Positions 1 through 40,044 of a stretch of DNA of 42,839 bases are shown piece after piece. Source of the DNA: a virus. Lineage: Duplodnaviria > Heunggongvirae > Uroviricota > Caudoviricetes. Each line of letters begins with the position of its first letter. Position 1 is the stretch's first letter. The notes under the pieces were generated by a model, which saw only the letters and a list, made by a program, of their open reading frames with translations, made no database searches and was not told the DNA's origin. Location: positions 1 through 42,839 of the IMG/VR virus record IMGVR_UViG_2565956731_000005. The stretch is one strand, 5' to 3'. A program made the position numbers and the translations under genes.

Positions 1-516
1 ATGAAATTTAAAAAATGTCTTCTGCCTGTGGCAATGTTAGCGTCATTCACTCTGGCAGGATGCCAGTCAAATGCTGATGATCATGCCGCCGATGTTTATC
101 AAACCGATCAACTGAATACCAAACAAGAAACTAAAACCGTTAATATTATTTCCATTCTTCCCGCAAAAGTTGCCGTAGACAACGCCCAAAATAAACGGAA
201 CGCACAAGCCTTCGGCGCGCTTATTGGCGCTGTCGCTGGCGGTGTTATCGGCCACAACGTCGGGTCTGGCAGCAATTCCGGAACGACGGCAGGTGCAGTT
301 GGCGGCGGAGCTGTAGGCGCGGCAGCGGGTTCTATGGTGAATGATAAAACCTTAGTGGAAGGTGTTTCTTTAACATATAAGGAAGGCACCAAAGTGTATA
401 CCTCCACCCAGGTGGGTAAAGAGTGCCAGTTTACGACAGGTTTAGCCGTTGTTATTACCACGACGTATAACGAAACGCGTATTCAGCCAAATACCAAATG
501 TCCTGAAAAGAGCTAA
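1..516 (+). CDS. Glycine-zipper outer-membrane lipoprotein (YcfJ-like)
   Basis: Lipoprotein signal peptide with lipobox LAGC at the N-terminus; Gly-rich GxxxG zipper segment including LIGAVAGGVIGH, as in YcfJ/17-kDa surface-antigen family proteins. Strong RBS-coupled gene follows. May be host or phage cargo. Confidence 0.7.
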   Translation: MKFKKCLLPVAMLASFTLAGCQSNADDHAADVYQTDQLNTKQETKTVNIISILPAKVAVDNAQNKRNAQAFGALIGAVAGGVIGHNVGSGSNSGTTAGAVGGGAVGAAAGSMVNDKTLVEGVSLTYKEGTKVYTSTQVGKECQFTTGLAVVITTTYNETRIQPNTKCPEKS

Positions 517-2698: not shown

Positions 2699-3098
2699 CT
2701 TTTCTCCCCGGAATTAACTCGCGTGGATTGTCGGAACGGTGGTAGAGCCAGATACCAATTCGCACTGCGACAATTGCTGACACGAATGCGCCAGCAGAGA
2801 AAACAATCCCTTTTTCAAAAGAGTCCTGCGTGATGGTAGGGATCAGGCTGGCTATGCCGATAAGAATTGATGCTGCTGGTTTGTAAAAGAGAAGACCGCA
2901 AAGAAAGCTGAGCATCGACAGGAGCACCCGGCGGCGGATCGGATATTCGACAGCAGAGGTAACAAAAATCACCGCGCCAGCCAAAGCACCGAGCGCCACT
3001 TCTGGCGGAACGCCTACGATAACAGCAGCAAAAGAGCTCATGCTAAGCCATTGATTTAGATGGTCAGTGGTTAGATGAGCTGACATAATGAACACCAT
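2682..3098 (-). CDS. Holin
   Basis: 138 aa with multiple transmembrane segments and a charged C-terminal tail, immediately upstream of the endolysin. Possible dual start MVFIM (GTG at 3098, ATG at 3086). Confidence 0.6.
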   Translation of the reverse strand: MVFIMSAHLTTDHLNQWLSMSSFAAVIVGVPPEVALGALAGAVIFVTSAVEYPIRRRVLLSMLSFLCGLLFYKPAASILIGIASLIPTITQDSFEKGIVFSAGAFVSAIVAVRIGIWLYHRSDNPRELIPGRKDDGNS

Positions 3099-3285
3099 TT
3101 ATTACGCATAACAATCTCCTTACTATTGAAGATGCATACATAATAAACCATTTATGAATAATAGTTACCTCAAAGCACTGTATTTCTACCTTCTACGGCA
3201 ATGAAAATTACGTTTAGAAAATGGTCTAGTGTTCCTCTCAGTGACTATTGAATTAGCTTCACGTACTGTGCAATAAGCAAGCCGA

Positions 3286-5961
3286 CTACTTAGATCCCCC
3301 CTCCGGATTCAGCAAATTATTCAGCTCCGCAAGATGTGACTCTATTTTTTCGATTCTTCTACGCAAATAAGCAGACTCAAGCCATAAGCACTGGTCAGCA
3401 CGAATCCCCCACCTATTTCCAGCTTTGCGTACCAGAATTCGCTCTTCTGTTTCGTATTCTTCTTCCTTCTCAATTTCGACACCATCCACAACTTCAGTAA
3501 TCGTCCTTACCGCCATCACTGGCTCGTATTTATCATCCCATTCATCGTAACAGAGAAGGCCAAATCGGGTTCCATCAACCCCATGCGCGAGGAAAGCGTC
3601 TCTTACCTGTTGTGCTATGACACCAAAATGCCAGCGGGCACCATCTCCCTTTTCCCTGATAGCCTCAAGCCAGCGAAAAGCTACGATCCTGATATCTCCC
3701 CATGCATCCAAAATTACATCACCTTCATAACCAGGGGACATATTCAGACTGAGTTCACTCGTTGTTAGCGGGTCGCTTTTTTCCCTACCATCTGAGGTGT
3801 TTATTGAGCCTGAAACAGCATAAATCTGAGTTGGCCTGTTATCTGGTACACCAACACTGTAAGAATTATCCAGATAAGGATGCCAGTGACCATTTGGACT
3901 TACTTTCCATCTCCAGGTGTCATTACTTCCCAAATGTAAATCAGCTCCATTTGCAGCCATTAAAGCTACATTGGAAGTGCTCATGTACATCTGGAAATAA
4001 CCAACGCCTTTTCTCTGCCATTCATAAAGCAAGCCTGTTCCCTGTTCGTTGTTGAACTTTAATGCTTTTATAGGTGAATTTTCTCCCCATGTTGTATCAC
4101 CTGAATAAATTACATGAGGAACCACCTCTGGATTATCAGAGATACATATTTCTTTAGATGGTAGAGATAGCGTTCTTTTATCTCCTGCACCAAGCGCATA
4201 AATCAGAATGGTGCGTCTGGTTGCCCCCATAACATCAGAATGCTCAGATACTATCGTTACCGATGGATAAAGAACACCATCGTAATCAACAAAATGCATC
4301 CCTTCTGATTCGCGGAATGTAGGGGTAGAGCCAATGATTCGTGGTAAATCCGTATCACCCAAATTAGAAATGGCTTTCTGCACATCATTTCCCAGCAGAT
4401 CGCAACTTGATAAATATTGAGTCTGCCCAAACGTAGTATTCCCACAATACATATACAGATGCGAGCCATCAGAACAAAATCCACTAAGTGATGTGGTTTC
4501 ATCACCACCGACTTGCGAAAGTTGAAGAGTAAACTCATGAGTACACAGGGCTGAATAATCACCTGGTTTATCAAAAATGTCTGTGGAAAATACACGAAAC
4601 GTTTGCTTATTGTAGTCGCCATTGTCGGTGAAACGGATAATCATCCATTTTCCGTCTAATGTAATAGTCGGAGTAGTTGAACTACCCGCTGTACGATTTT
4701 CCTCTACAACCCTAAACATTTCAGGAGAATCTATTTCCCCCTCGGAGTTGCTCCTCCAGGAAAATCTAACCACCCCATGTGAACCACCTACAGAAAAATC
4801 AAAGTCAGTATGGGTAGTAGAGCCTGCCGGTGTATCTGGAGCTGTAGTCCATAACTTAATCGCATTGTCTATATTCTGTACCGCTATTCCCTGATGACCC
4901 AGCCTGTCCTCAGGAAGCATAAAATCAGAAGATGTGTTTTTAATTTTTGAATCAGCAGAATATTTATTCCAGACAGAAACAGTAGTAGGGTTTCCATCTA
5001 TTTCTGTATTGTGATTGGAATAATAAGCTCTGCTTACAGGATCATATGCAAAAGTTTGCAATGTTCTTATTTGTCCGCGACCATTAGCAATTGGTATAAA
5101 CCGTATAGCGGCATTAGACTCATGTCCAATGGAATTAACGTCCCATGCAGGTCGCTTGCTTGTAACTAATTCGCCATTAACAGGAATGACTTTTCCGCCA
5201 ACCAACCATTTCCCGTTAATATAGGTATTCCTGAAAAATGTTCTGGAGGTAAAATAAGTTTTACCCTGCATATCAATAATTCTAGATGAAATAGCAGCCT
5301 CAAGTGATTCAAAAGCTAAAGAATCATTTGTAACACCATCACCTACAGCACCAAAATCTTTAGGGCTAACTGTGTCACGCATCTTATCCTGGAACGTTCT
5401 GTATACTGCTCCAGAACCATACTGAATAAACCAACCAAAACCACCAACAACTCCGGCGATTGCAGCATCAACATAATTACGCATTGAGCGATTATTTACA
5501 GCATCCTGCTCAAGTGATGGATCTGCAAGGTTAGAAATTCTGTTTTGTTTTGCATCGTAATATTTTGCAAGCAGAGAGGGCTTCATCAATGCACGTCTGA
5601 ACCACCCAAAACATTGCTGGATCAGCATCGTCAGGTAGTCAAAGGCATCTTCATGCACTTCGGGGAAAAACTTTCCCTGATTGCGGAGGTCTGTCTCCTG
5701 CACTACATCAAGCACACGATCTATCGTAATTAGCCAGCCAACAGCAAGCGGAGACGGAAGAACCACAGAACCGCCACTATAAGTGCCCGCCCCAGTTACC
5801 GTATAACCGGTATCCAGGACCAATTCTGTTACGTTTCCGTTCAGGTCAGACACCTGAACAACCAGGTCGGATTTTTTGAAAATACGGAAGGTATACGGAA
5901 ATGATGTCGTAACTCCGTTACCGGTGTATTCGTTGTGGTCAACTTCGGTTGAGACCGTCAT
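3286..5961 (-). CDS. Tailspike / tail fibre with depolymerase-type beta-helix and C-terminal intramolecular chaperone (peptidase S74-like)
   Basis: Conserved podovirus tail-fibre N-terminus (MTVSTEVDHNEYTGNGVTTSFPYTF); DFGAVGDGVTNDS pectate-lyase/beta-helix signature; C-terminal region with WHFGVIAQQV resembling the auto-cleaving chaperone domain. RBS GGAGA upstream. Confidence 0.85.
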   Translation of the reverse strand: MTVSTEVDHNEYTGNGVTTSFPYTFRIFKKSDLVVQVSDLNGNVTELVLDTGYTVTGAGTYSGGSVVLPSPLAVGWLITIDRVLDVVQETDLRNQGKFFPEVHEDAFDYLTMLIQQCFGWFRRALMKPSLLAKYYDAKQNRISNLADPSLEQDAVNNRSMRNYVDAAIAGVVGGFGWFIQYGSGAVYRTFQDKMRDTVSPKDFGAVGDGVTNDSLAFESLEAAISSRIIDMQGKTYFTSRTFFRNTYINGKWLVGGKVIPVNGELVTSKRPAWDVNSIGHESNAAIRFIPIANGRGQIRTLQTFAYDPVSRAYYSNHNTEIDGNPTTVSVWNKYSADSKIKNTSSDFMLPEDRLGHQGIAVQNIDNAIKLWTTAPDTPAGSTTHTDFDFSVGGSHGVVRFSWRSNSEGEIDSPEMFRVVEENRTAGSSTTPTITLDGKWMIIRFTDNGDYNKQTFRVFSTDIFDKPGDYSALCTHEFTLQLSQVGGDETTSLSGFCSDGSHLYMYCGNTTFGQTQYLSSCDLLGNDVQKAISNLGDTDLPRIIGSTPTFRESEGMHFVDYDGVLYPSVTIVSEHSDVMGATRRTILIYALGAGDKRTLSLPSKEICISDNPEVVPHVIYSGDTTWGENSPIKALKFNNEQGTGLLYEWQRKGVGYFQMYMSTSNVALMAANGADLHLGSNDTWRWKVSPNGHWHPYLDNSYSVGVPDNRPTQIYAVSGSINTSDGREKSDPLTTSELSLNMSPGYEGDVILDAWGDIRIVAFRWLEAIREKGDGARWHFGVIAQQVRDAFLAHGVDGTRFGLLCYDEWDDKYEPVMAVRTITEVVDGVEIEKEEEYETEERILVRKAGNRWGIRADQCLWLESAYLRRRIEKIESHLAELNNLLNPEGGSK

Positions 5962-6064
5962 GTTAAATCTCCAGATAGTCGCAGCACCCGTTGCGCCGCA
6001 TATCTGGTCATTCTATTACCTAAAAAACCACATATGGATAGAAAGACTGTGAATATGAATAGAT

Positions 6065-6081
6065 ATTACCTTTCAGGTAAT
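6065..6081. promoter_or_regulatory. 17-bp palindromic operator ATTACCTTTCAGGTAAT
   Basis: Perfect inverted repeat ATTACC-N5-GGTAAT; one of 12 copies of the same motif found at promoter regions in this window. Confidence 0.6.
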
Positions 6082-6117
6082 TTGCAAAACGTGCTGGATA
6101 GCAAACAAATTATTTGC

Positions 6118-6137
6118 TACTGTATAAATATACAGTT
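6118..6137. promoter_or_regulatory. LexA (SOS) box TACTGTATAAATATACAGTT
   Basis: CTGT-N8-ACAG with an all-A/T spacer and TA flanks, 18/20 match to the Enterobacterial consensus TACTGTATATATATACAGTA; about 20 bp upstream of the start of the small gene at 6158. Confidence 0.75.
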
Positions 6138-6157
6138 ATTGCATGGAGAAGATTAAG

Positions 6158-6415
6158 ATGCAGCAGTATCACTATCCACTGGAAGACGGATTTACCGAAA
6201 GGATTCACACGCCGGGAGGCGTCAGGTCACTGGTGGAGGGATCGCACTTGATGAAATTACTCCGGGATCTCGATAAGGATGGATTTAATGTCGATGGCCC
6301 ACTTGCCGAACTGACTGCACTGATTAACTACGTCACCAGCTCACAGATGTCTATGCAGGATCTGCAAACACATCTCGACTATTGTGCCGAACAATTACGA
6401 AAACAAACCCGGTAA
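6158..6415 (+). CDS. Small KilAC-like protein, paralogous to the Ant C-terminal domain; candidate SOS-induced antirepressor
   Basis: RBS GGAG 9 nt upstream of the ATG at 6158 (track start 6143 lacks an RBS). Protein aligns with the C-terminus of the Bro-N protein at 7564..8274 (YxxPLxxG…IHxPxGV…LMxLL…DGxxVxGxxAELT…QTH). Confidence 0.5.
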   Translation: MQQYHYPLEDGFTERIHTPGGVRSLVEGSHLMKLLRDLDKDGFNVDGPLAELTALINYVTSSQMSMQDLQTHLDYCAEQLRKQTR

Positions 6416-6421
6416 ATTTAA

Positions 6422-6439
6422 AGGCCGCAAGAGCGGCCT
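6422..6439. terminator. Hairpin between convergent genes (bidirectional terminator candidate)
   Basis: AGGCCGC-AAGA-GCGGCCT stem-loop in the 22-bp gap between convergent genes 6158..6415 and 6438..7166; T-rich on the minus side. Confidence 0.5.
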
Positions 6440-7166
6440 ATCGTTTCGCTTTGTGCTCATCCCAGCACGTTTTGCACCATGCCATTAATCCGTCCGCATT
6501 TTGATTATTAGGGTAAAAGCTGGTTCGTTTTCTGCGGACATTACAAATTGGGCACCACTTCATATGGCGTGTATTCTTTGGGCCATCGAGACACCTTGCA
6601 CACCACTTAGTCAATCCATCTGGATTTTTTGACGATTTCCTGAATTTTTCATATGGTAGGTTTATTCTGCATCGCAAGCACTGCTTGCTACCACTTGAAA
6701 CTCTGTTAGCTGATTCTTCTTTTGGCGGCGATACAGAAGGTATTCTTGCTGGCTCTGATACTGCCTGAGGTGCTTTTTTAGATGACTGAGACGATATGTC
6801 ATCACCAGGGAATCTTCCATGATATGCCGGACGCGTTGACACTCCAGGTGGAAGCTCAGCTGTAAACGGCTTTGGCTGAATCAGTTGCCTCTCTTTTGCT
6901 AACTCCTGCTGTTTATAATATGTCTGGATTACCGCACTATCATAAGCAGGAGGTGCGGAAATATTAGGCGCATTACCTCCAGTTTTTTGAAACTGAGTAG
7001 AGGTGTGTTCTATCACCTGTGTACGATTAATCGTTATCTCCCCATCTTCGGTCTTTATCGTTTTGTTATGATTAACGACCGTACGATCAGAGATCTTAGT
7101 CTTGTTCTGGTTGATAACGTAAATAATCACCGCAACCACACCAACAACTATCCAGAAAACTTCCAT
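6438..7166 (-). CDS. Membrane-anchored protein with tandem C-terminal zinc-ribbon repeats, function unknown
   Basis: N-terminal transmembrane helix (FWIVVGVVAVIIYVI), Pro/Ser-rich linker, then CLRC…DGLTKWCARC…WCPIC…DGLMAWCKTC (two xDGLxxWCxxC repeats plus extra CxxC). RBS GAGGAAAA upstream; operator 20 bp upstream. Confidence 0.6.
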   Translation of the reverse strand: MEVFWIVVGVVAVIIYVINQNKTKISDRTVVNHNKTIKTEDGEITINRTQVIEHTSTQFQKTGGNAPNISAPPAYDSAVIQTYYKQQELAKERQLIQPKPFTAELPPGVSTRPAYHGRFPGDDISSQSSKKAPQAVSEPARIPSVSPPKEESANRVSSGSKQCLRCRINLPYEKFRKSSKNPDGLTKWCARCLDGPKNTRHMKWCPICNVRRKRTSFYPNNQNADGLMAWCKTCWDEHKAKR

Positions 7167-7185
7167 TGCTTTTCCTCACAATAAC

Positions 7186-7202
7186 ATTACCTTAAAGGTA
7201 AT
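7186..7202. promoter_or_regulatory. 17-bp palindromic operator ATTACCTTAAAGGTAAT
   Basis: Perfect inverted repeat in the divergent promoter region between 6438..7166 and ant. Confidence 0.6.
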
Positions 7203-7250
7203 ATCTTGCTTTCAGGTGATCAAGCGTTAAACGCAATCAACCAAATACGG

Positions 7251-7295
7251 TTGATTTTAATATTTCTTCGCGTTTATCATTACCTTTGCGGTAAA
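7251..7295 (+). promoter_or_regulatory. Candidate sigma70 promoter (TTGATT-N18-TATCAT) overlapped by operator ATTACCTTTGCGGTAAA
   Basis: -35/-10-like hexamers with 18-bp spacing; operator copy at 7279..7295 overlaps the -10/+1 region; points toward ant. Confidence 0.4.
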
Positions 7296-7385
7296 TTTAC
7301 ATCGCACTCCTCTTGTGCCATAGTAATCGGGTACTGGCAAAATCCAGTGCCGGGATTGGCGTCCCGAGTTACTAAGTGGCGCATA

Positions 7386-7407
7386 CCACGCCAGACGTGG
7401 TTTTTTT
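7386..7407 (+). terminator. Rho-independent terminator in the ant leader
   Basis: CCACG-CCAGA-CGTGG hairpin followed by TTTTTTT, about 155 bp upstream of the ant start codon. Confidence 0.65.
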
Positions 7408-7563
7408 ATGCGTTAAGCACAGCTATATCCGAATTATGGTGGGCTGGGCAGGGGTCCGAAAGGACGCCGGTACCACTTAGGCCGGTACGCCAACCTTGTC
7501 CAGTTCACCACCAGTAATTGGCGTTGCGGTGGTGATTAAAATCACTAAGTGGAGATAACCACC

Positions 7564-8274
7564 ATGGCTAATGCTCAAACTGCCATCTTCAAATTTGAAT
7601 CTGTTAACCCTATCCGTTCCATCATTATCGATGGCCAACCATGGTTTGTAGCCCAAGACGTTTGTAGTGCGCTGCGTATCCAAAACGTCACCCAAGCACT
7701 TGAAAAACTGGATGATGATGAAAGGTCTATGTTCAACATAGGGCATGAACATCGTGCAATTTTTGACAGCCGAGTAAAAGAGATCAACATCATCTCCGAG
7801 TCAGGCCTCTACACACTGATCCTCCGCTGCCGCGATGCGGTGACACCAGGCACTATCCCCTACCGCTTTCGTAAATGGGTTACAGGTGAGGTTCTTCCTC
7901 AGATCCGCCGCACCGGAAGTTACATTAAAAACTCGCTCCCGCAGGAAGAACGCATAAAGATGGTTGCCGACCAGGTAGCCAACGCCACGGCGTCAGCAGT
8001 AATGCAGGCGATGAAGATAGAGAACAAAACCTACAGTGCCCCACTGAAGCCCGGCTACCGCAGTCTGATTCATTCTCCGTCTGGTGTTCTCGGCCTGACG
8101 GAGAACTCACTGCTGATGAATTTGCTGAACCAGTTACAGGAAGACGGGCACGACGTATCGGGCGCGGCGGCGGAGCTGACCACCATGTTCTGCTACATCG
8201 TCGGTGTGAGTAAATGCCTGCGTGATATCCAGACCCACGCGGAGTACATCAACGACAAGGCAGGGTTCTTCTGA
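7564..8274 (+). CDS. ant: Antirepressor Ant (Bro-N domain plus KilAC-like C-terminal domain)
   Basis: Bro-N signature (AIFKFESVNPIRSIIIDGQPWFVAQDVCSAL…YRFRKWVTGEVLPQIRRTGSY); RBS GGAG 9 nt upstream of the ATG at 7564. Confidence 0.85.
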   Translation: MANAQTAIFKFESVNPIRSIIIDGQPWFVAQDVCSALRIQNVTQALEKLDDDERSMFNIGHEHRAIFDSRVKEINIISESGLYTLILRCRDAVTPGTIPYRFRKWVTGEVLPQIRRTGSYIKNSLPQEERIKMVADQVANATASAVMQAMKIENKTYSAPLKPGYRSLIHSPSGVLGLTENSLLMNLLNQLQEDGHDVSGAAAELTTMFCYIVGVSKCLRDIQTHAEYINDKAGFF

Positions 8275-8343
8275 CGGCGGCGGCACAGGGATGTGCCTTT
8301 AAATAATTCTGTACGATTGCAGACTGTGGGTGAATAGCGTACT

Positions 8344-8360
8344 ATTACCTCAAGGGTAAA
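8344..8360. promoter_or_regulatory. Operator-like palindrome ATTACCTCAAGGGTAAA
   Basis: Motif copy about 60 bp upstream of the small ORF at 8420. Confidence 0.5.
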
Positions 8361-8419
8361 CGGATTGGTTTCATTTTTATTAATCCGTGTAATGAACTTA
8401 TGAGATATGAGGTAATGTC

Positions 8420-8599
8420 ATGCGAAACGAAAAATTGCAGATGCGTAGAGCGCAAGCTGCCGCAAGACGTTCTTTCAATGGAAGCGTAGAGTACGTAAAA
8501 GTTACTATGACAAAAGATCACGCAAGTCGCGTATCCCGCGCTTTCTTTGATTCTCGTAACAATAAGGAAAATTATGAGTTCGTCTGCGTCGCAGAATGA
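8420..8599 (+). CDS. Small basic protein (59 aa), possible ribbon-helix-helix antitoxin/regulator
   Basis: Below the ORF-track size cutoff. RBS GAGG 8 nt upstream; overlaps the start of the downstream gene by 26 bp (operon-coupled). VKVTMTKDHASRVSRAFF is consistent with a beta-strand plus helix DNA-binding fold. Confidence 0.35.
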   Translation: MRNEKLQMRRAQAAARRSFNGSVEYVKVTMTKDHASRVSRAFFDSRNNKENYEFVCVAE

Positions 8600-9119
8600 T
8601 AAAAATCAAATTGTCAGATATAAGGGTCGAGTATTGCATACGCAAAATTTCTCGGCCCTTTGTGCATCTGATCTTGAGCTGAAGAAAGTATCTGATGCCT
8701 TTACCCAGTATTGGAAAACGGGATACCATCCATCTCTTGGTAAAGATGCTGCATTTGCTCGTCCGACAGAAATGCTTAAACTAAATGTCAGGCATACTCA
8801 TGTCGATAACCAAGACTATATTCCAGAAGATAGTGATAAAAAACACACTGGTAAAAAATCATCTTGGGATGCATGGAAAAATATAGCGTCTGTACAAGTA
8901 AAATGCATACCAACAAGTGATTGCTTTTTAGTTTATTCGGTAAATCACAATCGTGATGCGCTGGTTATGTTTTTTGTTGACGCAGATGCCCACAACATAA
9001 CTGAGCAAGAAGAGTTTAAAGAGGCAGCAATCACTATCAGTTATCAATTCTTTGAGAAAACAAAAACAGAACCAATGCCTTTAGAAGAAGATCTTTTTTC
9101 TGATAAATGGAAGGAATAA
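8574..9119 (+). CDS. YafO-like protein (putative toxin / mRNA interferase family), product uncertain
   Basis: RBS AAGGAAA upstream of the ATG at 8574. Central region (GKDAAF…NVRHTHV…TSDCFLVYS…ALVMFFVDADAH) resembles YafO-family toxins as recalled; AT-rich relative to neighbours. Confidence 0.45.
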   Translation: MSSSASQNDKNQIVRYKGRVLHTQNFSALCASDLELKKVSDAFTQYWKTGYHPSLGKDAAFARPTEMLKLNVRHTHVDNQDYIPEDSDKKHTGKKSSWDAWKNIASVQVKCIPTSDCFLVYSVNHNRDALVMFFVDADAHNITEQEEFKEAAITISYQFFEKTKTEPMPLEEDLFSDKWKE

Positions 9120-9140
9120 GCCCGCGTTGCGGGCTTTTTT
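9119..9140 (+). terminator. Rho-independent terminator
   Basis: AGCCCGC-GTT-GCGGGCT followed by TTTTTT, immediately after the stop of 8574..9119. Confidence 0.75.
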
Positions 9141-9205
9141 GTGTCTGCGGATTCCCGCCCGGGTGGCGGTGGCATTCGTTAAAAACAAGGCTGCGAAAGC
9201 GGCCT

Positions 9206-9217
9206 GTGACATGTCAC
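9206..9217. repeat. Perfect 12-bp palindrome GTGACATGTCAC (copy 1 of 3)
   Basis: Identical 12-mer also at 26395..26406 and 30805..30816; flanking sequence is not conserved. Confidence 0.9.
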
Positions 9218-9224
9218 GCTCACG

Positions 9225-9365
9225 TTATGACAAGCCTATGTACCCTGCTACACCAGATAATATCAAAATAACTGCAACAGCAAATTCGCCATCGTCAATG
9301 ATACATTTGCGGTTCATAACGCCAAGTGCAACAAGCGCAAACACAACAAGAATAAAAGCAATCAT
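9225..9365 (-). CDS. Small hydrophobic protein (46 aa), two predicted membrane helices
   Basis: Below the ORF-track cutoff. ATG with RBS AAGGATGAG directly after the stop of the 824-aa virion gene; MIAFILVVFALVALGV…VAVILILSGVAGYIGLS. Confidence 0.3.
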   Translation of the reverse strand: MIAFILVVFALVALGVMNRKCIIDDGEFAVAVILILSGVAGYIGLS

Positions 9366-9374
9366 TTCTCATCC

Positions 9375-11849
9375 TTATTGCGGAGTGACATCCTGTGGTC
9401 GCCACCAGTATGTCTGATTAAACTCTTTCTTCGAACGTTGCTCCATTTTACGCAAATAGCCTGGTGAAAAATACTCCTGCATCTGGTTAAAGATCATATG
9501 ATCGAGAGCCGCCTTTAAGTACCATAGATTCGCACCTGGCATCAAACCTTTCCCCAGCTTCACCAGATCACCACCAGTCTGCTCACTCTTCCCTTCCACA
9601 GCATTTAACGGTATGCCCTGAGCAATCTTCACTACGTCATCAACCAGACCAGCTACCGGGCCAAGCATCGACGCCAGCGCGCCGCTTCCGTACCTAGTGT
9701 GATCTGACAATAAAAAGTCACCGTAAAGGCCAAGGCCACCACCTTTCAGTAAAGCACCAAGCCAGAATTTTGCGGCATCTTCTCCTGTCATCTCTCGAGG
9801 ATTACGACCAGACGCAAGGTCGTTAAGTTGCTGCGACAAAGCGCCAAGAATGGTCGTACTGGCAATAAACGTCGCAATATATGCCGCACGCCCACCAGCA
9901 GACGGCATACCCATAGCGCGTGACCAGTGACGCATAACAACCGAGATAGGAAACGATTTAAACAGGAAAACACTTCTCGTTAATTCACCTTTCCATGTTC
10001 CACGCTGAATACCAGAACCGGTTATCAGTTGCTCACGTGCTCCCGGTGTAATAACAGCCATATCAACTTCTTCAGTTACGGCACCGAGCAGTTTACGCAT
10101 TGCCTCAAATTTCACTCGTTCAGGCTCACCAAGATGTTTAACTGCTGAATCAGGGATACGCATAATGCTTTCCGGTGTCAGCATCGTATTATTGCCGTTC
10201 CCCCAGTCCTCCTGTTGCGCCAGCTTCCATACGCTCCAGTCTGTTTCAGTAATCCCTTTGCTTTTCAGGATACGAAAATCAGAGCCATCGAGGCTACGAA
10301 GGTCTGGTGTCCGTGACACTACTTCTCCCAGGCTTCCCATCATTGTTACGCCATAGGCGCGCTTGTGCGCATCTGACCATGCTGTAAGTCCACTGGCACG
10401 CATTACCGCCATTGCCGCCCAACGAGACACAGACGGCCCCATATTATCCATCGCCCAGCGGTTAACGCTGCCAAGTAGAGATTCCATCGCCAGACCAGCG
10501 CGGCGCGCCCGCGCAAGCTCAGTACGGTTCGTTGGGTCCATAGCTTCAAGCTGGTTGCGGAATAACTGGTTCATTGGAAGGTTGGTAACCTTCGCAGACA
10601 GATACATGGTTCCAAGATCAGAGAACGATGACAGCAACGCGGATCCGAGTCTGCTGGCAACCAGCCAGTTGCGGATATTGTCAGACCATCGCGCGATGTG
10701 CGGATTCGCTACAGGCTGTGTCTTTCCGGAAATAAAGTTGTACAGATTCTCTGTGTTGTTCGCCAGCCGCTCGACTTTACCGGTTTTACTCGGGTTAGCT
10801 GTTGCCGTTTCTGCCTTAACCTGATCAAGAAGGGAGCGGAAAACATGATCGGGGTTTGGGCCATATGTTTCCACCAGTGCAATATCTTTACTGATACCTT
10901 CCAAGTGACCGACCATGATTTCCCATAGAGAGCGATCGCCATAAAGTTGCTGATATTGCAGATAGGAATCTGCATCTTTGAAATGTATCTGTCGTGATGC
11001 ATTACCACGGTTAGCACGTGCGCCGGAAATTCGCATTCCGGTATCAGTAAGCTTATTCAGCCCACCAGTAGCGATCGTGTTATAAGCCTCTCCAAGAAAT
11101 GCAGACAACTCGGCATCGTTCATCAGTTGTCCATCGGCTCGGGTATAATATTTGCGATCCAGCTTACCTATAACATCGCTAACCCATTTATCTTTTGATA
11201 CCGCCCCAACCTTTTCCATAGAATGATGTTGAGGGATCCCCCAGTTTTCGAGATAGCCAATGTCCCCACCAGCATCATTAAACCGGCGGCGGAGTAGATC
11301 TGTCACTTCTCTCCACGCCTTAGCACCTTTTCTTGCTTTAGCATTGCCAGTATTTTGCCCTCGCATTTCATATACCAGGTCACGCACGCCAGCTTCATCT
11401 TCAAACAGGCCAAAAAAGCGAGGATCAACTGCTTCAAATGCCTCCTGCAATTGACTCAATGCATAATCACGAGTGGCTTTTGTTCTGGACTCAACAGAGA
11501 GGAAATTAGATTTGCCGTCTGCATTAAAAGCAATAGTACGGTTAAGAGCGCCAAGTTTTCCATCAGCCCCTTGGTAGCTATTGATAAATTTATCCAATCT
11601 CTGACGTGCGGCTATAGTGAGGGCAACACGACGTTTCTTTAATGCCGCTTCTCGCTGTAATTCTTCAGATGCCAATTGTGCTGCACGATACAGCCGCTCT
11701 GATTCGGAAAGTTGTCGCCACGACATCGGGTCATCACGAGCAATGGAGCGCATATTTCGATAAATGCGGTCTTCAATGTTCTGTATTTCTCGCGCCGTTA
11801 ACGTGCGCTGCGCCGCCTGCTGGACCGCTTGTATACATTCCTGTCTCAT
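9375..11849 (-). CDS. Large internal virion / DNA-ejection protein
   Basis: 824-aa protein, the last of three large genes following the tail-tube genes, in the position of T7 gp14-16-like core proteins; tightly coupled to the upstream gene. Confidence 0.65.
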   Translation of the reverse strand: MRQECIQAVQQAAQRTLTAREIQNIEDRIYRNMRSIARDDPMSWRQLSESERLYRAAQLASEELQREAALKKRRVALTIAARQRLDKFINSYQGADGKLGALNRTIAFNADGKSNFLSVESRTKATRDYALSQLQEAFEAVDPRFFGLFEDEAGVRDLVYEMRGQNTGNAKARKGAKAWREVTDLLRRRFNDAGGDIGYLENWGIPQHHSMEKVGAVSKDKWVSDVIGKLDRKYYTRADGQLMNDAELSAFLGEAYNTIATGGLNKLTDTGMRISGARANRGNASRQIHFKDADSYLQYQQLYGDRSLWEIMVGHLEGISKDIALVETYGPNPDHVFRSLLDQVKAETATANPSKTGKVERLANNTENLYNFISGKTQPVANPHIARWSDNIRNWLVASRLGSALLSSFSDLGTMYLSAKVTNLPMNQLFRNQLEAMDPTNRTELARARRAGLAMESLLGSVNRWAMDNMGPSVSRWAAMAVMRASGLTAWSDAHKRAYGVTMMGSLGEVVSRTPDLRSLDGSDFRILKSKGITETDWSVWKLAQQEDWGNGNNTMLTPESIMRIPDSAVKHLGEPERVKFEAMRKLLGAVTEEVDMAVITPGAREQLITGSGIQRGTWKGELTRSVFLFKSFPISVVMRHWSRAMGMPSAGGRAAYIATFIASTTILGALSQQLNDLASGRNPREMTGEDAAKFWLGALLKGGGLGLYGDFLLSDHTRYGSGALASMLGPVAGLVDDVVKIAQGIPLNAVEGKSEQTGGDLVKLGKGLMPGANLWYLKAALDHMIFNQMQEYFSPGYLRKMEQRSKKEFNQTYWWRPQDVTPQ

Positions 11850-25442: not shown

Positions 25443-25459
25443 ATTACCTTCCAGGTAAG
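25443..25459. promoter_or_regulatory. Operator-like palindrome ATTACCTTCCAGGTAAG, with TTGACA at 25422..25427
   Basis: Motif copy downstream of a consensus -35 hexamer; points rightward toward the tRNA. Confidence 0.45.
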
Positions 25460-25780: not shown

Positions 25781-25857
25781 GTGGCATTAGCTCAGTTGGA
25801 CAGAGCAACCGCCTTCTAAGCGGTTGGTCGCAGGTTCGAATCCTGCATGCCACGCCA
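25781..25857 (+). tRNA. tRNA-Arg (anticodon UCU), CCA end encoded
   Basis: Cloverleaf folded by hand: acceptor GTGGCAT/ATGCCAC, D-arm GCTC-AGTTGGACA-GAGC, anticodon stem ACCGC/GCGGT with loop CTTCTAA, T-arm GCAGG-TTCGAAT-CCTGC, discriminator G then CCA. Resembles argU. Confidence 0.9.
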
Positions 25858-36923: not shown

Positions 36924-37508
36924 ATGAAAAGTATCCAGGACGTCCGCAGGCAAAATCTCAACGACTTGATCGACCGTGAATTCAATGGTGTTCAGACGCG
37001 GATGGCTGAAAAACTTGGAACTCAGGCAAATCTGGTAAACCGCTGGGCTCTTGGCAAGAAGGTTATCGGCGACCAGGTTGCACGAAAAATTGAAGCTGCC
37101 GCCAATAAACCCCGTAACTGGCTTGATATCGATCGCTCGCTTTCTCAGGAAGGTTTTCAGCCTGTCGGCCCAAGCGACATTGGCCAGCTGGCGGCTCACA
37201 ACCTGGAACGCTGGATGAGCGAAAGCCGCGACCTTTCAACACAGGGAAAACTTCACCGCGCATCCGGCGTAGCCCAGGTGACAATCAGCCGCCTGTTAAA
37301 CAATGAGGTCAGCGTTTCCATTTCCACCCTGGAGAATGTTGCATCCGCATTCGGGCGTCACGGCTATGAATTACTGATTCACCCGCACGACCCTGCGACC
37401 ATCAACTATGACCGCTCGCGCTACGCATTGTTACCCGAAACCGAGAAAGCAAAGATCGAAAGTTACATTGAATTTGTCATCAACCAGAACGAAAAAAACA
37501 AACAATAA
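36924..37508 (+). CDS. Prophage repressor, tandem HTH (XRE-type), no S24 peptidase domain
   Basis: Two HTH-like segments (QTRMAEKLGTQANLVNRWALGKK and LHRASGVAQVTISRLLNN); C-terminus shows no Ser/Lys autocleavage motif; divergent from the Cro-like gene; followed by a terminator. Confidence 0.7.
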   Translation: MKSIQDVRRQNLNDLIDREFNGVQTRMAEKLGTQANLVNRWALGKKVIGDQVARKIEAAANKPRNWLDIDRSLSQEGFQPVGPSDIGQLAAHNLERWMSESRDLSTQGKLHRASGVAQVTISRLLNNEVSVSISTLENVASAFGRHGYELLIHPHDPATINYDRSRYALLPETEKAKIESYIEFVINQNEKNKQ

Positions 37509-37564: not shown

Positions 37565-37643
37565 ATTACCTAATGGGTAATTTTTTTAACTCATATCTAT
37601 TGACATCAAACCAAATACGCATAATTATTACCTCAACGGTAAC
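37565..37643 (+). promoter_or_regulatory. Rightward early promoter (TTGACA at 37600..37605) flanked by two operators
   Basis: ATTACCTAATGGGTAAT (37565..37581, perfect) upstream of the -35 hexamer and ATTACCTCAACGGTAAC (37627..37643) over the -10/+1 region; drives the recombination operon. Confidence 0.55.
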
Positions 37644-39021: not shown

Positions 39022-40044
39022 ATGTCTATCAATGCACTTAAGGCAGCGGCTACCGGTAACCAAGTTGCACATCATAATGAGAAACCAACAACTCTGGCCG
39101 GACTTCTGGCAGACCCAAAAATTAAAGCTCAGATGGCTTTGGCACTTCCAAAGCACATGACAGCAGACCGTCTGGCGCGCATAGCAACCACAGAGATCAG
39201 AAAGGTTCCAAAACTTGCATCATGCGACCAAGCCAGCTTCCTGGGGGCAATTATGCAATGTGCCCAATTGGGTCTTGAACCAGGCGGAGCTCTTGGACAC
39301 GCTTACCTGATACCGTTCGACAAACGCCAGAAAGTAAATGGAAGATGGGAAACCGTATCTACAGAAGCACAGCTGATTATCGGCTATCGCGGAATGATTG
39401 ACCTTGCCCGCCGCTCTGGGCAGATCCTGAGTATCTCGGCTCGTACCGTACATACAAACGACAAATTCAGCTACTCATACGGCCTGGAAGAAACGCTCGA
39501 GCATTTACCTTGCGAAACAGGTGACCGCGGAGAATTAACGCACGTTTACGCCGTTGCACGACTGAAAGATGGCGGAGTCCAATTTGAAGTTATGAGCCGG
39601 GCAGACGTTGAGAAAGTTCGTGCACTGAGCAAAGCCGGTAGCAGTGGCCCATGGGTTGATCACTTCGATGAGATGGCTAAAAAAACAGTAATTCGCCGAC
39701 TGTTCAAATATCTTCCTGTTTCTATTGAAATGCAGAAGGCTGTTGTTATGGATGAGCGCGCTGAAGCTGGACTTAGCCAAGATAACGCAGCTGTTATCAC
39801 TGGTGAATATTCCGTAGTTGACGATGAGCGTCAACACCTGTCGCCAATTTCAGATTCAGAACGAGAAGAAGCTCGAGAATATATCATCGCGATACTTAAT
39901 AGCCTGGATCCATCTGCTGAAGATGCAAAAACGATGTTCAAGCGCGCTGAAAATGAAATTAACACCATGGCTGAAAAGCTCGGTGATGAATATCACCAAA
40001 AATTCATGATGACGCTTAACGATATGCGTCCAGAATTCGAGTAA
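39022..40044 (+). CDS. recT: RecT-family single-strand annealing recombinase
   Basis: RecT-like sequence and length; RBS AAGGAG; paired with the YqaJ exonuclease. Confidence 0.8.
   Translation: MSINALKAAATGNQVAHHNEKPTTLAGLLADPKIKAQMALALPKHMTADRLARIATTEIRKVPKLASCDQASFLGAIMQCAQLGLEPGGALGHAYLIPFDKRQKVNGRWETVSTEAQLIIGYRGMIDLARRSGQILSISARTVHTNDKFSYSYGLEETLEHLPCETGDRGELTHVYAVARLKDGGVQFEVMSRADVEKVRALSKAGSSGPWVDHFDEMAKKTVIRRLFKYLPVSIEMQKAVVMDERAEAGLSQDNAAVITGEYSVVDDERQHLSPISDSEREEAREYIIAILNSLDPSAEDAKTMFKRAENEINTMAEKLGDEYHQKFMMTLNDMRPEFE

What the first reader, a model, noticed from the sequence alone, without database searches (positions are those of the whole stretch)
6065..6415. LexA-boxed stand-alone antirepressor-domain gene beside a full-length Bro-N antirepressor, in a prophage whose repressor has no cleavage domain
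A near-consensus SOS box (TACTGTATAAATATACAGTT, 6118..6137) sits just upstream of a small ORF (6158..6415). Its product aligns along its whole length with the C-terminal domain of the neighbouring Bro-N protein Ant (7564..8274). The prophage repressor (36924..37508) is a tandem-HTH protein with no visible S24 autocleavage domain. Together this predicts induction by LexA-controlled antirepression rather than RecA-stimulated repressor cleavage, as described for coliphage 186 Tum and Gifsy-type prophages. Here the candidate effector is an isolated KilAC-like domain next to a second, full-length antirepressor, which I do not know to be characterised.
Basis: partly seen in the sequence, partly recalled or inferred. 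Interest (0 to 1): 0.75.

Follow-up and report, generated by a model that had tools for sequence, protein, structure and literature searches.

The report
Known LexA-controlled phage antirepressor, plus RNA-controlled paralog
The small gene behind the SOS box is the E. coli-prophage counterpart of an antirepressor already characterised and crystallised with its repressor in Salmonella phage SPC32H, so the core finding is known; the added point is that the neighbouring Bro-N gene carries a copy of the same domain but is controlled by an antisense-RNA switch, not by LexA.

Summary
A near-perfect LexA box (6118..6137) is the only one in the window. It precedes an 85-aa gene (6158..6415) whose product matches the C-terminus of the Bro-N protein (7564..8274; 42% identity, E=9e-16). 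The repressor (36924..37508) has two HTH regions and no S24 domain.

The system is not uncharacterised. The window is an epsilon15/phiV10-like (Uetakevirus) prophage. The small protein is 88% identical to Ant of Salmonella phage SPC32H (PDB 5D50 chain E), and the repressor is a full-length homolog of SPC32H Rep (5D50 chain A). The LexA box aligns with the SPC32H box, whose C-to-A change distinguishes SPC32N.

"KilA-C-like" is not supported: no Pfam ANT/KilA-C match.

It lies behind an isrK sRNA (7331..7407) and a C4 antisense RNA (7432..7515). The C4 loops pair with sites in isrK and on the gene's ribosome-binding site, and these pairings co-vary across 11 loci.

The locus therefore holds two antirepressor circuits, SOS and P1-immI-like RNA control, that share one domain. 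The core is known. The shared-domain pairing is a modest new variant.

The parts
6066..6080 (.). 15-bp palindrome TTACCTTTCAGGTAA, a putative Rep operator, starting 52 nt upstream of the LexA box
   Evidence: TTACC-N5-GGTAA occurs 11 times in the window against 0.09 expected. The same palindrome clusters around rep in SPC32H. It lies 49-52 nt upstream of the LexA box in 10 of 11 loci. The protein that binds it is inferred, not shown.
6118..6137 (.). LexA (SOS) box TACTGTATAAATATACAGTT upstream of ant
   Evidence: Unique in the window, 0 of 100 shuffles. PWM score 27.8 bits against a next best of 11.4. It aligns with the SPC32H box, and SPC32N differs there by C to A in the CAG half-site.
6158..6415 (+). 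ant: 85-aa stand-alone antirepressor, ortholog of SPC32H Ant
   Evidence: 88% identity to SPC32H Ant. PDB 5D50_E at E=4e-47. Against SPC32H ant, 33 codons differ synonymously only and 11 change the amino acid. phrog_450 at E=9e-48. No Pfam or NCBIfam family.
6422..6439 (.). GC-rich hairpin between the convergent ant and the 242-aa minus-strand ORF; a likely bidirectional terminator
   Evidence: Terminator-like site.
7280..7294 (.). Palindrome TTACCTTTGCGGTAA (putative Rep operator) abutting the -35 element of the isrK promoter
   Evidence: The palindrome starts 51 nt before the isrK 5' end in 10 of 11 loci (9 perfect copies, one with a single mismatch); phiV10 has it at 48 nt and L014 has none.
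7296..7324 (+). Promoter-like site: TTTACA, 17-nt spacer, (TG)CCATAGT, ending 6 nt before the isrK 5' end
   Evidence: Promoter scan. Both hexamers and their spacing are conserved in the 11 loci.
7331..7407 (+). isrK-type sRNA with an intrinsic terminator (7385..7401 plus a T run). It carries the upstream C4 target copies b1 (7356..7362, TTGGCGT) and a1 (7372..7379, CTAAGTGG).
   Evidence: Rfam RF01394 at 63.5 bits (gathering score 50). RF03163 c4-a1b1 at 43.4 bits, just below its gathering score of 46.7. Complementarity. Terminator.
7432..7515 (+). C4-type antisense RNA. Loop a' is 7473..7480 (CCACTTAG) and loop b' is 7487..7493 (ACGCCAA).
   Evidence: Rfam RF01695 at 66 bits (gathering score 45). 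Both loops are complementary to upstream and downstream target copies. The loops and targets co-vary across 11 loci.
7518..7552 (+). Downstream C4 targets b2 (7518..7524) and a2 (7545..7552). a2 overlaps the Shine-Dalgarno GGAG (7551..7554) of the Bro-N gene.
   Evidence: The leader 7331..7580 folds at -102.8 kcal/mol, z = -5.3, with the SD and AUG inside a hairpin.
7564..8274 (+). ant2: 236-aa fusion of a Bro-N domain (residues 17-112, nt 7612..7899) and an SPC32H-Ant-like C-terminal domain (residues 155-231, nt 8026..8256)
   Evidence: Pfam Bro-N at E=1e-19. The C-terminus matches PDB 5D50_E at E=1e-13 and phrog_450 at E=4e-36. BLASTP against the small Ant gives E=9e-16.
36924..37508 (+). 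rep: 194-aa prophage repressor, homolog of SPC32H Rep, with no S24 domain
   Evidence: PDB 5D50_A at E=4e-42 over residues 1-190. 42% identity to SPC32H Rep over the full length. Pfam shows HTH matches only. Rep and Ant homologs occur in the same set of about 35 phage records.
36806..36868 (.). Operator-like palindromes in the rep/cro-like intergenic region: 36806 (1 mismatch) and 36854 (perfect). Further copies lie downstream of rep at 37566 and 37628.
   Evidence: SPC32H has the equivalent clusters on both sides of its rep gene.

Best explanation
The locus is the antirepression region of an epsilon15/phiV10-like temperate podophage. It holds two antirepressor genes that share one repressor-binding domain but respond to different signals.

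Circuit 1, shown experimentally in the ortholog SPC32H and inferred here by orthology:
- In the lysogen, host LexA occupies the box at 6118..6137 at the ant promoter and keeps ant (6158..6415) silent.
- DNA damage leads to LexA self-cleavage, and Ant is made.
- Ant, a tetramer in SPC32H, binds the non-cleavable tetrameric repressor Rep (36924..37508) and takes it off its operators, which starts the lytic programme.

Circuit 2, inferred from RNA-family matches, base-pairing and covariation:
- The neighbouring gene ant2 (7564..8274) encodes a Bro-N domain fused to an Ant-like domain.
- It is transcribed from the isrK promoter by read-through of the isrK terminator.
- The C4-type RNA (7432..7515) lies in the leader and is presumably processed out of it.
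- Its two loops pair with sites b2 and a2 on the ant2 ribosome-binding site and block translation, as in the immI operon of phages P1 and P7.
- The isrK sRNA carries decoy copies of the same sites (b1 and a1). It can relieve the block, as IsrK does for anrP in the Gifsy-1 prophage.
- Ant2 would therefore deliver the Rep-binding domain in response to superinfection by a phage with a different C4 type, or to SOS-independent cues.
For: Circuit 1:
- Ant is 88% identical to the SPC32H gene annotated 'ant: anti-repressor protein'.
- It matches PDB 5D50 chain E at E=4e-47.
- Rep matches 5D50 chain A over its full length at E=4e-42.
- The LexA box is unique in the window and of top PWM score.
- The box aligns column for column with the SPC32H box. 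SPC32N differs from SPC32H there by one C-to-A change.
- Codon differences from SPC32H ant are 33 synonymous-only against 11 amino-acid-changing, which indicates purifying selection.
- Rep and Ant homologs occur in the same set of about 35 phage genomes.

Circuit 2:
- The Rfam isrK and C4 matches are above their gathering scores.
- The C4 loops are complementary to paired sites upstream, in isrK, and downstream, on the SD of ant2.
- Across 11 loci the a' loop takes 4 forms and the b' loop 5 forms. Both target copies change with them wherever exact pairing was found: the b pair in all 11 loci and the a pair in 9.
- isrK plus C4 precede the fusion gene in all 11 loci that have one, whatever its N-terminal domain. 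Both RNAs are absent from SPC32H, which has no fusion gene.
- The ant2 C-terminus matches 5D50_E at E=1e-13.
- Published mechanisms: P1 immI, Gifsy-1 IsrK, and N15, which has both an SOS antirepressor and an RNA-controlled anti-immunity operon.
Against: - Nothing was tested experimentally in this phage.
- Rep here is only 42% identical to SPC32H Rep while Ant is 88% identical. Ant binding to this Rep is inferred, not shown.
- The exact ant promoter is not established. The consensus scan finds no promoter-like site at the box.
- For circuit 2, no icd- or orf45-like ORF ends next to the ant2 start. The translational coupling used in P1 and Gifsy-1 is therefore not evident.
- The Ant-like domain of Ant2 is only about 40% identical to Ant, so its target could differ.
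- I could not read the two primary SPC32H papers.
Confidence: 0.85

Rival explanations
1. Ant2 (7564..8274) does not act on this phage's Rep. Its diverged Ant-like domain targets another repressor, for example one from a co-resident prophage (cross-talk). Alternatively the protein acts through its Bro-N domain as a DNA-binding regulator or growth inhibitor. Only the small Ant would then belong to the lytic switch.
For: The Ant-like domain is only 37-42% identical to Ant. The N-terminal module is freely exchanged among Bro-N, AntA, Rha and ORF6N. [quoted passage not shown] Gifsy-1 AnrP acts through antQ and causes growth arrest.
Against: The fusion always sits next to the small ant in phages that carry this Rep family. 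22 alignment columns are invariant across 11 Ant and Ant-like sequences that include the fusion domain. The profile family is very small, 60 cluster representatives among 1.84 billion proteins, and in every context I inspected it lies in this tailspike-adjacent neighbourhood. That pattern argues for one shared partner.
Confidence: 0.25
2. One reading: the small protein is an isolated KilA-C domain of an uncharacterised kind, and together with the full-length Bro-N antirepressor it forms a single LexA-driven induction module.
For: The small protein is homologous to the C-terminal domain of a Bro-N protein. In many phage antirepressors that position is occupied by KilA-C/ANT.
Against: Neither protein matches Pfam ANT/KilA-C at E<=1. 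The family is characterised and has a crystal structure. The Bro-N gene has no LexA box; the next best PWM score in the window is 11.4, at 39671. The gene has its own promoter and RNA control elements.
Confidence: 0.04
3. The small ORF is a decaying partial duplicate of the 3' end of ant2, with no function of its own, and the palindrome upstream resembles a LexA site by chance.
For: It is short, has no Pfam or NCBIfam family, and is annotated 'hypothetical protein' in RefSeq E. coli genomes.
Against: It is present as an intact full-length reading frame in 35 phage genomes across four host genera, including phages that have no ant2 such as SPC32H. Synonymous-only codon differences outnumber amino-acid changes 33 to 11. 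The LexA box is conserved at the same position. The SPC32H protein has been crystallised.
Confidence: 0.01

Closest known systems
SPC32H Ant / Rep / LexA lytic switch (Salmonella phage SPC32H, Uetakevirus; Kim & Ryu 2013 J Virol 87:11775; Kim et al. 2016 PNAS 113:E2480; PDB 5D50 and 5D4Z)
   Same: Same genus-level phage type. Same gene position, between the tailspike gene and the injection/structural genes. Ant is 88% identical. Rep is homologous over its full length and has no S24 domain. The LexA box is at the homologous position, and the same TTACC-N5-GGTAA palindrome lies 52 nt upstream.
   Different: Rep is only 42% identical. SPC32H has no isrK, no C4 and no second, fused antirepressor gene. 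No experiment has been done on this E. coli prophage.
P1/P7 immI operon (c4 antisense RNA, icd, ant1/ant2; Citron & Schuster 1990; Heinrich et al. 1995)
   Same: A C4-family RNA lies in the leader of an antirepressor gene. It has two loop sequences complementary to one target pair upstream and one downstream, and the downstream pair covers a ribosome-binding site. Loop and target types vary between related phages, as between P1 and P7 (description of P1).
   Different: There is no icd gene between C4 and the antirepressor gene, and the a2 target sits directly on the ant2 SD. The antirepressor is a Bro-N plus SPC32H-Ant-like fusion, not P1 Ant. The host phage is an integrating podophage rather than a plasmid myophage.
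Gifsy-1 isrK-orf45-anrP locus (Hershko-Shalev et al. 2016, PMC4825925)
   Same: An isrK sRNA with its own terminator is followed, on the read-through transcript, by a stable processed RNA and an antirepressor-like gene that is translationally silent unless IsrK acts in trans.
   Different: No orf45-like ORF coupled to the antirepressor start is evident. Homology of Ant2 to AnrP was not tested. The Gifsy-1 paper does not describe its downstream RNA (STnc1160) as a C4 homolog.
N15 antC (SOS-regulon antirepressor) plus the immA anti-immunity operon controlled by a small processed RNA (Mardanov & Ravin 2007; Ravin et al. 1999)
   Same: One temperate phage carries both a LexA-controlled antirepressor for induction and a separate RNA-controlled antirepressor system. 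N15 gp30 matches the N-terminal part of Ant2, residues 7-151, at 43% identity.
   Different: In N15 the two systems lie at separate loci. No Ant-family match was found in N15. Here the two genes are adjacent and share a domain.
Coliphage 186 Tum and Gifsy GfoA/GftA LexA-controlled antirepressors (Shearwin et al. 1998; Lemire et al. 2011)
   Same: The logic is the same: a LexA-repressed small protein inactivates a non-cleavable repressor by binding it.
   Different: No detectable sequence relationship. tblastn of Ant finds only the 35 Uetakevirus-like records.

Membership tests
SPC32H-type Ant/Rep antirepression switch | Small (~86 aa) Ant protein homologous over its full length | tested here: met
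   88% identity over 83 residues, E=6e-57. PDB 5D50_E at E=4e-47.
SPC32H-type Ant/Rep antirepression switch | Rep homolog: N-terminal HTH DNA-binding region plus a C-terminal assembly / Ant-binding domain, with no S24 autocleavage domain | tested here: met
   5D50_A at E=4e-42 over residues 1-190, and 5D4Z_A (C-terminal fragment) at E=4e-20. Pfam shows HTH matches only. No S24-like tblastn hit.
SPC32H-type Ant/Rep antirepression switch | LexA box at the ant promoter | tested here: met
   The box aligns with the SPC32H box. The base changed in SPC32N (C to A) is a C here. PWM score 27.8 bits, unique in the window. The promoter itself was not mapped.
SPC32H-type Ant/Rep antirepression switch | LexA binding, SOS-dependent Ant synthesis, and Ant-Rep complex formation that releases Rep from DNA | not testable with these tools
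   Needs EMSA, induction assays and pull-downs. The Rep divergence (42% identity) makes this the main inferred step.
KilA-C / ANT domain (Pfam PF03374) | Significant match to the ANT/KilA-C profile | tested here: not met
   hmmscan against Pfam at E<=1 lists no ANT match for the small protein or for the Bro-N protein. A fold-level comparison was not run.
Bro-N domain proteins (PF02498) | Match to the Bro-N profile above the gathering score | tested here: met
   The 7564..8274 product, residues 17-112, scores 71.5 bits against a cut-off of 25.6. The small protein has no Bro-N domain.
P1/P7 immI-type C4 antisense control | C4 RNA (Rfam RF01695) upstream of the antirepressor gene on the same strand | tested here: met
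   66 bits against a gathering score of 45, at 7432..7515. Present in all 11 loci that have the fusion gene.
P1/P7 immI-type C4 antisense control | Two C4 loops complementary to an upstream (a1/b1) and a downstream (a2/b2) target pair, with the downstream pair covering a ribosome-binding site | tested here: met
   Exact 8-nt and 7-nt complementarities at 7372/7545 and 7356/7518; a2 overlaps the GGAG. Covariation: 4 a-types and 5 b-types over 11 loci.
P1/P7 immI-type C4 antisense control | An icd-like ORF between C4 and ant, translationally coupled to ant | tested here: not met
   No plus-strand ORF ends near 7564; the nearest stops are at 7480 and 7517.
P1/P7 immI-type C4 antisense control | Operon promoter under control of the primary repressor (Op51 in P1) | tested here: inconclusive
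   A TTACC-N5-GGTAA palindrome abuts the -35 element of the isrK promoter and starts 51 nt before the isrK 5' end in 10 of 11 loci. That Rep binds it is an inference from its clustering around rep.
Gifsy-1 isrK-orf45-anrP locus | isrK sRNA (RF01394) with an intrinsic terminator, upstream of an antirepressor-like gene | tested here: met
   63.5 bits against a gathering score of 50, at 7331..7407. Terminator hairpin at 7385..7401 followed by a T run.
Gifsy-1 isrK-orf45-anrP locus | orf45 translationally coupled to the antirepressor gene; the antirepressor homologous to AnrP | not tested
   No coupled ORF is evident. The AnrP sequence was not fetched.
Tum / GfoA / AntC LexA-controlled antirepressors | Sequence homology to Tum, GfoA or AntC | tested here: not met
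   tblastn of Ant against 50,697 phage records at E<=1e-3 finds only 35 Uetakevirus-like records. The resemblance is functional only.

The most novel reading that the evidence does not exclude
One repressor-binding domain is wired to two sensors in adjacent genes. A stand-alone copy is under LexA and responds to DNA damage. A second copy is under an isrK/C4 RNA switch whose specificity loops differ between phages that have identical Rep: the window has CCACTTAG and phiV10 has CCTTTTAG. The second copy is fused to an interchangeable N-terminal module (Bro-N, AntA, Rha or ORF6N). Ant2 would then be an SOS-independent inducer, or an anti-immunity factor, acting on the same non-cleavable Rep. The Rep-operator-like palindrome at a fixed position upstream of both promoters would give Rep feedback control over both antirepressors. 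I found no description of this dual wiring of the SPC32H-type domain, but I could not read the primary SPC32H papers.
Probability: 0.4. Interest if true: 0.5.

Novelty: new member of a known kind. Interest (0 to 1): 0.3.

Why it matters
The core finding adds little. It extends a solved Salmonella-phage switch (SPC32H Ant/Rep/LexA) to a common family of E. coli prophages: 535 of 5,426 complete E. coli genomes match this region, and 110 of them carry at least 80% of it.

It has some annotation value. The small Ant has no Pfam or NCBIfam model and is labelled 'hypothetical protein' in RefSeq.

The more useful result is the second circuit. These prophages, which include relatives from EHEC strains such as TL-2011b and phiV10, may have an SOS-independent route to induction or anti-immunity. 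That route would run through an RNA switch that delivers the same repressor-binding domain. This bears on current interest in non-canonical induction cues and on competition between co-resident prophages.

Tried and rejected
- The primary SPC32H papers were not held: the 2013 J Virol paper by DOI and as PMC3807360, and the 2016 PNAS paper as PMC4983836. Their content is cited through secondary sources and through my memory of the abstracts, marked as such.
- Pfam and NCBIfam gave no family for the small protein. A weak DUF724 hit (17.6 bits against a cut-off of 38.4) was dismissed.
- The exact consensus LexA 20-mer has no match in the fetched loci. I replaced that search with a PWM scan.
- The generic inverted-repeat finder saw nothing in 5900..9400, and my first palindrome pattern used the wrong spacing. 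The correct 5-nt spacer came from reading the sequence.
- The sigma-70 scan did not find an ant promoter. Two hand-made candidates remain unresolved. One is -35 TTGCAA at 6082 with -10 ACAAAT at 6105, which puts the box at about +1. The other is -10 TATACA at 6129..6134, inside the box.
- The word-indexed protein search returned only stand-alone close relatives. The fused forms appeared only with the profile search.
- I considered that the small ORF is a decayed duplicate of the ant2 3' end and rejected this.
- I considered a hidden S24 domain elsewhere in the window and found none. This is a weak test.
Full report
**What is in the sequence**

The region lies between a tailspike gene (3286..5961, minus strand) and the large virion or injection genes (from 9375, minus strand). 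The 20-mer TACTGTATAAATATACAGTT sits at 6118..6137. It differs from the LexA consensus at 2 positions and is the only match with up to 3 mismatches in 42.8 kb, with none in 100 shuffles.

I built a position weight matrix from 24 E. coli SOS boxes recalled from memory of published compilations. With it the site scores 27.8 bits, above every training site. The next best position in the window scores 11.4, and the maximum in 200 shuffles was 19.5.

Twenty nucleotides downstream, after a GGAG, an 85-codon ORF starts at 6158. BLASTP of its product against the product of 7564..8274 gives 42% identity over 74 ungapped residues, E=9e-16. The match falls on residues 155-228 of the larger protein. That protein has a Bro-N domain at residues 17-112.

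The repressor candidate (36924..37508) has two HTH_3-type regions and no Peptidase_S24 match. tblastn with LexA and lambda CI finds nothing S24-like anywhere in the window.

**What it is**

The window is an epsilon15/phiV10-like (Uetakevirus) genome. Its closest relatives are the E. coli phages TL-2011b, HEMP4, ZX5 and phiV10.

tblastn of the small protein finds 35 phage records, all of this group. They include Salmonella phages SPC32H and SPC32N, where the gene is annotated 'ant: anti-repressor protein' and is 88% identical. The protein matches PDB 5D50 chain E ('Anti-repressor protein') at E=4e-47. The window's repressor matches chain A of the same entry ('Repressor') at E=4e-42 over residues 1-190. 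It also matches the C-terminal fragment 5D4Z.

These entries belong to the SPC32H Rep-Ant work: Kim & Ryu 2013, J Virol 87:11775, and Kim et al. 2016, PNAS 113:E2480. I could not open either paper. Secondary sources state two things:
- Ant is made after LexA self-cleavage and inhibits the repressor by binding it (PMC7380047).

An alignment of the ant upstream regions shows that the window's LexA box occupies the same columns as the SPC32H box. SPC32N differs from SPC32H by one C-to-A change in the CAG half-site. From my memory of the 2013 abstract, that is the mutation that makes Ant constitutive. The base is a C here.

Between the window and SPC32H, ant differs at 33 codons synonymously only and at 11 with an amino-acid change. 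The gene is therefore under purifying selection. Rep homologs occur in the same set of about 35 phage records as Ant homologs.

It is the known SPC32H-type switch, not an uncharacterised one.

**The 'KilA-C-like' label**

Neither the small protein nor the C-terminus of the Bro-N protein matches Pfam ANT/KilA-C, even at E<=1. No NCBIfam model matches either. PHROGs places both in phrog_450, function unknown.

A profile of the domain, searched against 1.84 billion cluster representatives, finds only 60 proteins. Most are stand-alone proteins of 82-95 aa. The longer ones carry the domain at the C-terminus behind Bro-N, AntA, Phage_pRha or ORF6N domains.

The domain therefore occupies the architectural slot that KilA-C occupies in other antirepressors. 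Membership of the KilA-C family was tested at the sequence-profile level and not met.

**The second gene is on a different circuit**

There is no LexA-like site near 7564..8274. Instead, Rfam finds an isrK sRNA at 7331..7407 (63.5 bits, gathering score 50) and a C4 antisense RNA at 7432..7515 (66 bits, gathering score 45). It also finds a just-subthreshold match to the 'a1, b1 targets of C4' family within isrK.

A promoter-like site (TTTACA, 17-nt spacer, TG-CCATAGT) ends 6 nt before the isrK 5' end. isrK ends in a terminator hairpin followed by a T run.

The C4 pairings are as follows:

| C4 loop | Loop coordinates | Upstream copy, in isrK | Downstream copy |
|---|---|---|---|
| a' CCACTTAG | 7473..7480 | CTAAGTGG at 7372..7379 | CTAAGTGG at 7545..7552 |
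| b' ACGCCAA | 7487..7493 | TTGGCGT at 7356..7362 | TTGGCGT at 7518..7524 |

The downstream a copy overlaps the GGAG of the Bro-N gene, whose ATG is at 7564. The whole leader is strongly structured (z = -5.3), with the SD and AUG inside a hairpin.

This is the layout of the P1/P7 immI operon, in which C4 RNA blocks antirepressor synthesis. It is also the layout of the Gifsy-1 isrK-orf45-anrP locus. There, a translationally silent read-through transcript is activated by IsrK acting in trans.

**Comparative support**

I collected 10 further loci that contain a fused Ant-like gene. Five are phage records: phiV10, TL-2011b, Tyrion and two Klebsiella phages. Five are genome or metagenome contigs with AntA, Rha, ORF6N or Bro-N N-termini.

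- In every one, isrK and C4 lie immediately upstream of the fusion gene.
- SPC32H has no fusion gene and has neither RNA.
- The C4 a' loop takes 4 different sequences and the b' loop 5. Wherever exact pairing was found, both the upstream and the downstream target copies carry the matching change. That was the b pair in all 11 loci and the a pair in 9.
- The window and phiV10 encode identical Rep proteins but have different a' loops and targets. This recalls P1 and P7, which, as I recall, share C1 specificity but differ in C4.
- In ten of the eleven loci (all but the Sodalis locus L014) a small ant lies beside the fusion gene, with a single strong LexA-like site just upstream of it. Scores are 15.5-27.8 bits, against at most 8.2 for the next best site in the same locus.

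**Most likely mechanism**

Circuit 1 rests on the experimentally shown SPC32H ortholog and is inferred here. LexA holds ant off, DNA damage releases it, and Ant strips the non-cleavable Rep from its operators.

Circuit 2 is inferred. Transcription from P_isrK mostly stops at the isrK terminator. Read-through RNA carries C4 and ant2. C4 pairs with b2 and a2 and blocks ant2 translation. The block fails in two situations:
- when a superinfecting relative carries a different C4 type, which makes Ant2 an anti-immunity factor;
- when isrK sRNA, which carries decoy copies of the sites, titrates C4, which gives an SOS-independent input.

Because Ant2 ends in an Ant-like domain that matches 5D50_E at E=1e-13, its most economical target is the same Rep.

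N15 is a precedent for one phage having both an SOS-regulon antirepressor (antC) and an RNA-controlled anti-immunity operon. There the two are at separate loci, and no Ant-family match was found in N15.

**Caveats**

- Rep is only 42% identical to SPC32H Rep while Ant is 88% identical. Either Ant recognises conserved features of Rep, or its specificity is broader than one Rep type.
- No icd- or orf45-like coupled ORF precedes ant2.
- The ant promoter is not mapped.
- The main rival concerns Ant2 only: it may target another repressor or act through its N-terminal domain.

**A further pattern**

The palindrome TTACC-N5-GGTAA occurs 11 times in the window against 0.09 expected and 10 times in SPC32H. 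In both genomes it clusters in the rep/cro-like intergenic region and just downstream of rep. This suggests it is the Rep operator; that is an inference.

One copy starts 49-52 nt upstream of the LexA box in 10 of 11 loci. Another starts 51 nt upstream of the isrK 5' end, abutting the -35 hexamer, in 10 of 11 loci. Rep may therefore also control both antirepressor promoters. The direction of that control is open: a site centred near -44 could either occlude the promoter or activate it.

**Verdict**

However, the system is an ortholog of a published and structurally solved switch, and the KilA-C label is unsupported.

What is new relative to what I could find is the adjacent, RNA-controlled paralog that shares the Ant domain, with interchangeable N-terminal modules and co-varying C4 specificity. 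That is a modest variant assembled from known parts.

The region is common: 535 of 5,426 complete E. coli genomes carry a match, and 110 of them cover at least 80% of it. In those genomes the small gene is annotated only as 'hypothetical protein'.

Noticed in passing
window 6066, 7187, 7280, 8345, 25444, 30526, 34461, 34523, 36854, 37566, 37628 (15 bp each): The palindrome TTACC-N5-GGTAA occurs 11 times against 0.09 expected. It clusters around rep and sits at a fixed distance upstream of both antirepressor promoters. SPC32H has 10 copies with the same half-sites, although its Rep is only 42% identical. It is probably the Rep operator; whether Rep represses or activates at the ant and isrK promoters is unknown.
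   Followed up: partly
window 6438..7166 (minus strand): A 242-aa ORF is wedged between the two antirepressor genes. It has an N-terminal hydrophobic segment and a Cys-rich C-terminus with two zinc-ribbon-like repeats. Its matches are phrog_6762, weak endonuclease VII / Lar-like hits, and Stc1 below cut-off. It is absent from phiV10, and TL-2011b annotates the equivalent stretch only as a misc_feature. Its function is unknown.
   Followed up: no
window 8345..9136: Downstream of ant2 there is another operator-like palindrome (8345), two overlapping ORFs of unknown function (8420..8599, phrog_6685; 8547..9119, phrog_1651), and a strong terminator hairpin (9118..9136). It may be a moron or accessory cassette under the same regulator.
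   Followed up: no
window 6158..6415 versus 36924..37508, compared with SPC32H (L008): Ant is far more conserved than its presumed partner: 88% identity for Ant against 42% for Rep between this phage and SPC32H. This suggests that Ant contacts conserved Rep features or is cross-reactive among Rep types.
   Followed up: partly
window 7473..7480 versus phiV10 locus L001 3195..3280: Phages with 100% identical Rep (the window and phiV10) carry different C4 a' loops (CCACTTAG and CCTTTTAG) with matching target changes. This is a P1/P7-like situation that predicts heteroimmunity at the RNA level.
   Followed up: partly
L006 657, L007 1264, L010 2559, L011 4063, L012 2815: In the Klebsiella, Rahnella and metagenome relatives, the LexA-like site upstream of the small ant has one half-site changed from CTGT to ATGT (ATATGTATATATATACAGTA; PWM score 15.5-18). 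It could be a weaker LexA site or a site for a different regulator.
   Followed up: no
L004 (SPC32N) 356..375 versus L003 (SPC32H) 2956..2975: The single C-to-A change in SPC32N destroys the CAG half-site and also turns TATACA into TATAAA, a better -10 hexamer. This hints that the ant -10 element lies inside the LexA box (window 6129..6134).
   Followed up: no
L010 3001..3960 (Rahnella sp. PCH160): The deposited 319-aa 'Rha family transcriptional regulator' call starts inside the isrK/C4 leader (isrK 3003..3080, C4 3103..3189). The real start is probably near 3240. This looks like a gene-calling artefact caused by the structured RNA leader.
   Followed up: no
L002 (TL-2011b) 6971..7038: There is a P22-type sar antisense RNA match (44.8 bits, gathering score 43) a few kb from the ant region of TL-2011b. 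No counterpart reached threshold in the window.
   Followed up: no
window 25781..25854: A tRNA gene (Rfam 73.3 bits) lies inside the phage genome. SPC32H also carries a tRNA-Arg. An operator-like palindrome lies about 340 bp upstream, at 25444.
   Followed up: no
window 5962..8330 versus RefSeq E. coli genomes: 535 of 5,426 complete E. coli genomes match this module, and 110 of them cover at least 80% of it. The small Ant is annotated 'hypothetical protein' throughout and has no Pfam or NCBIfam model. This is an annotation gap for a structurally characterised protein.
   Followed up: partly
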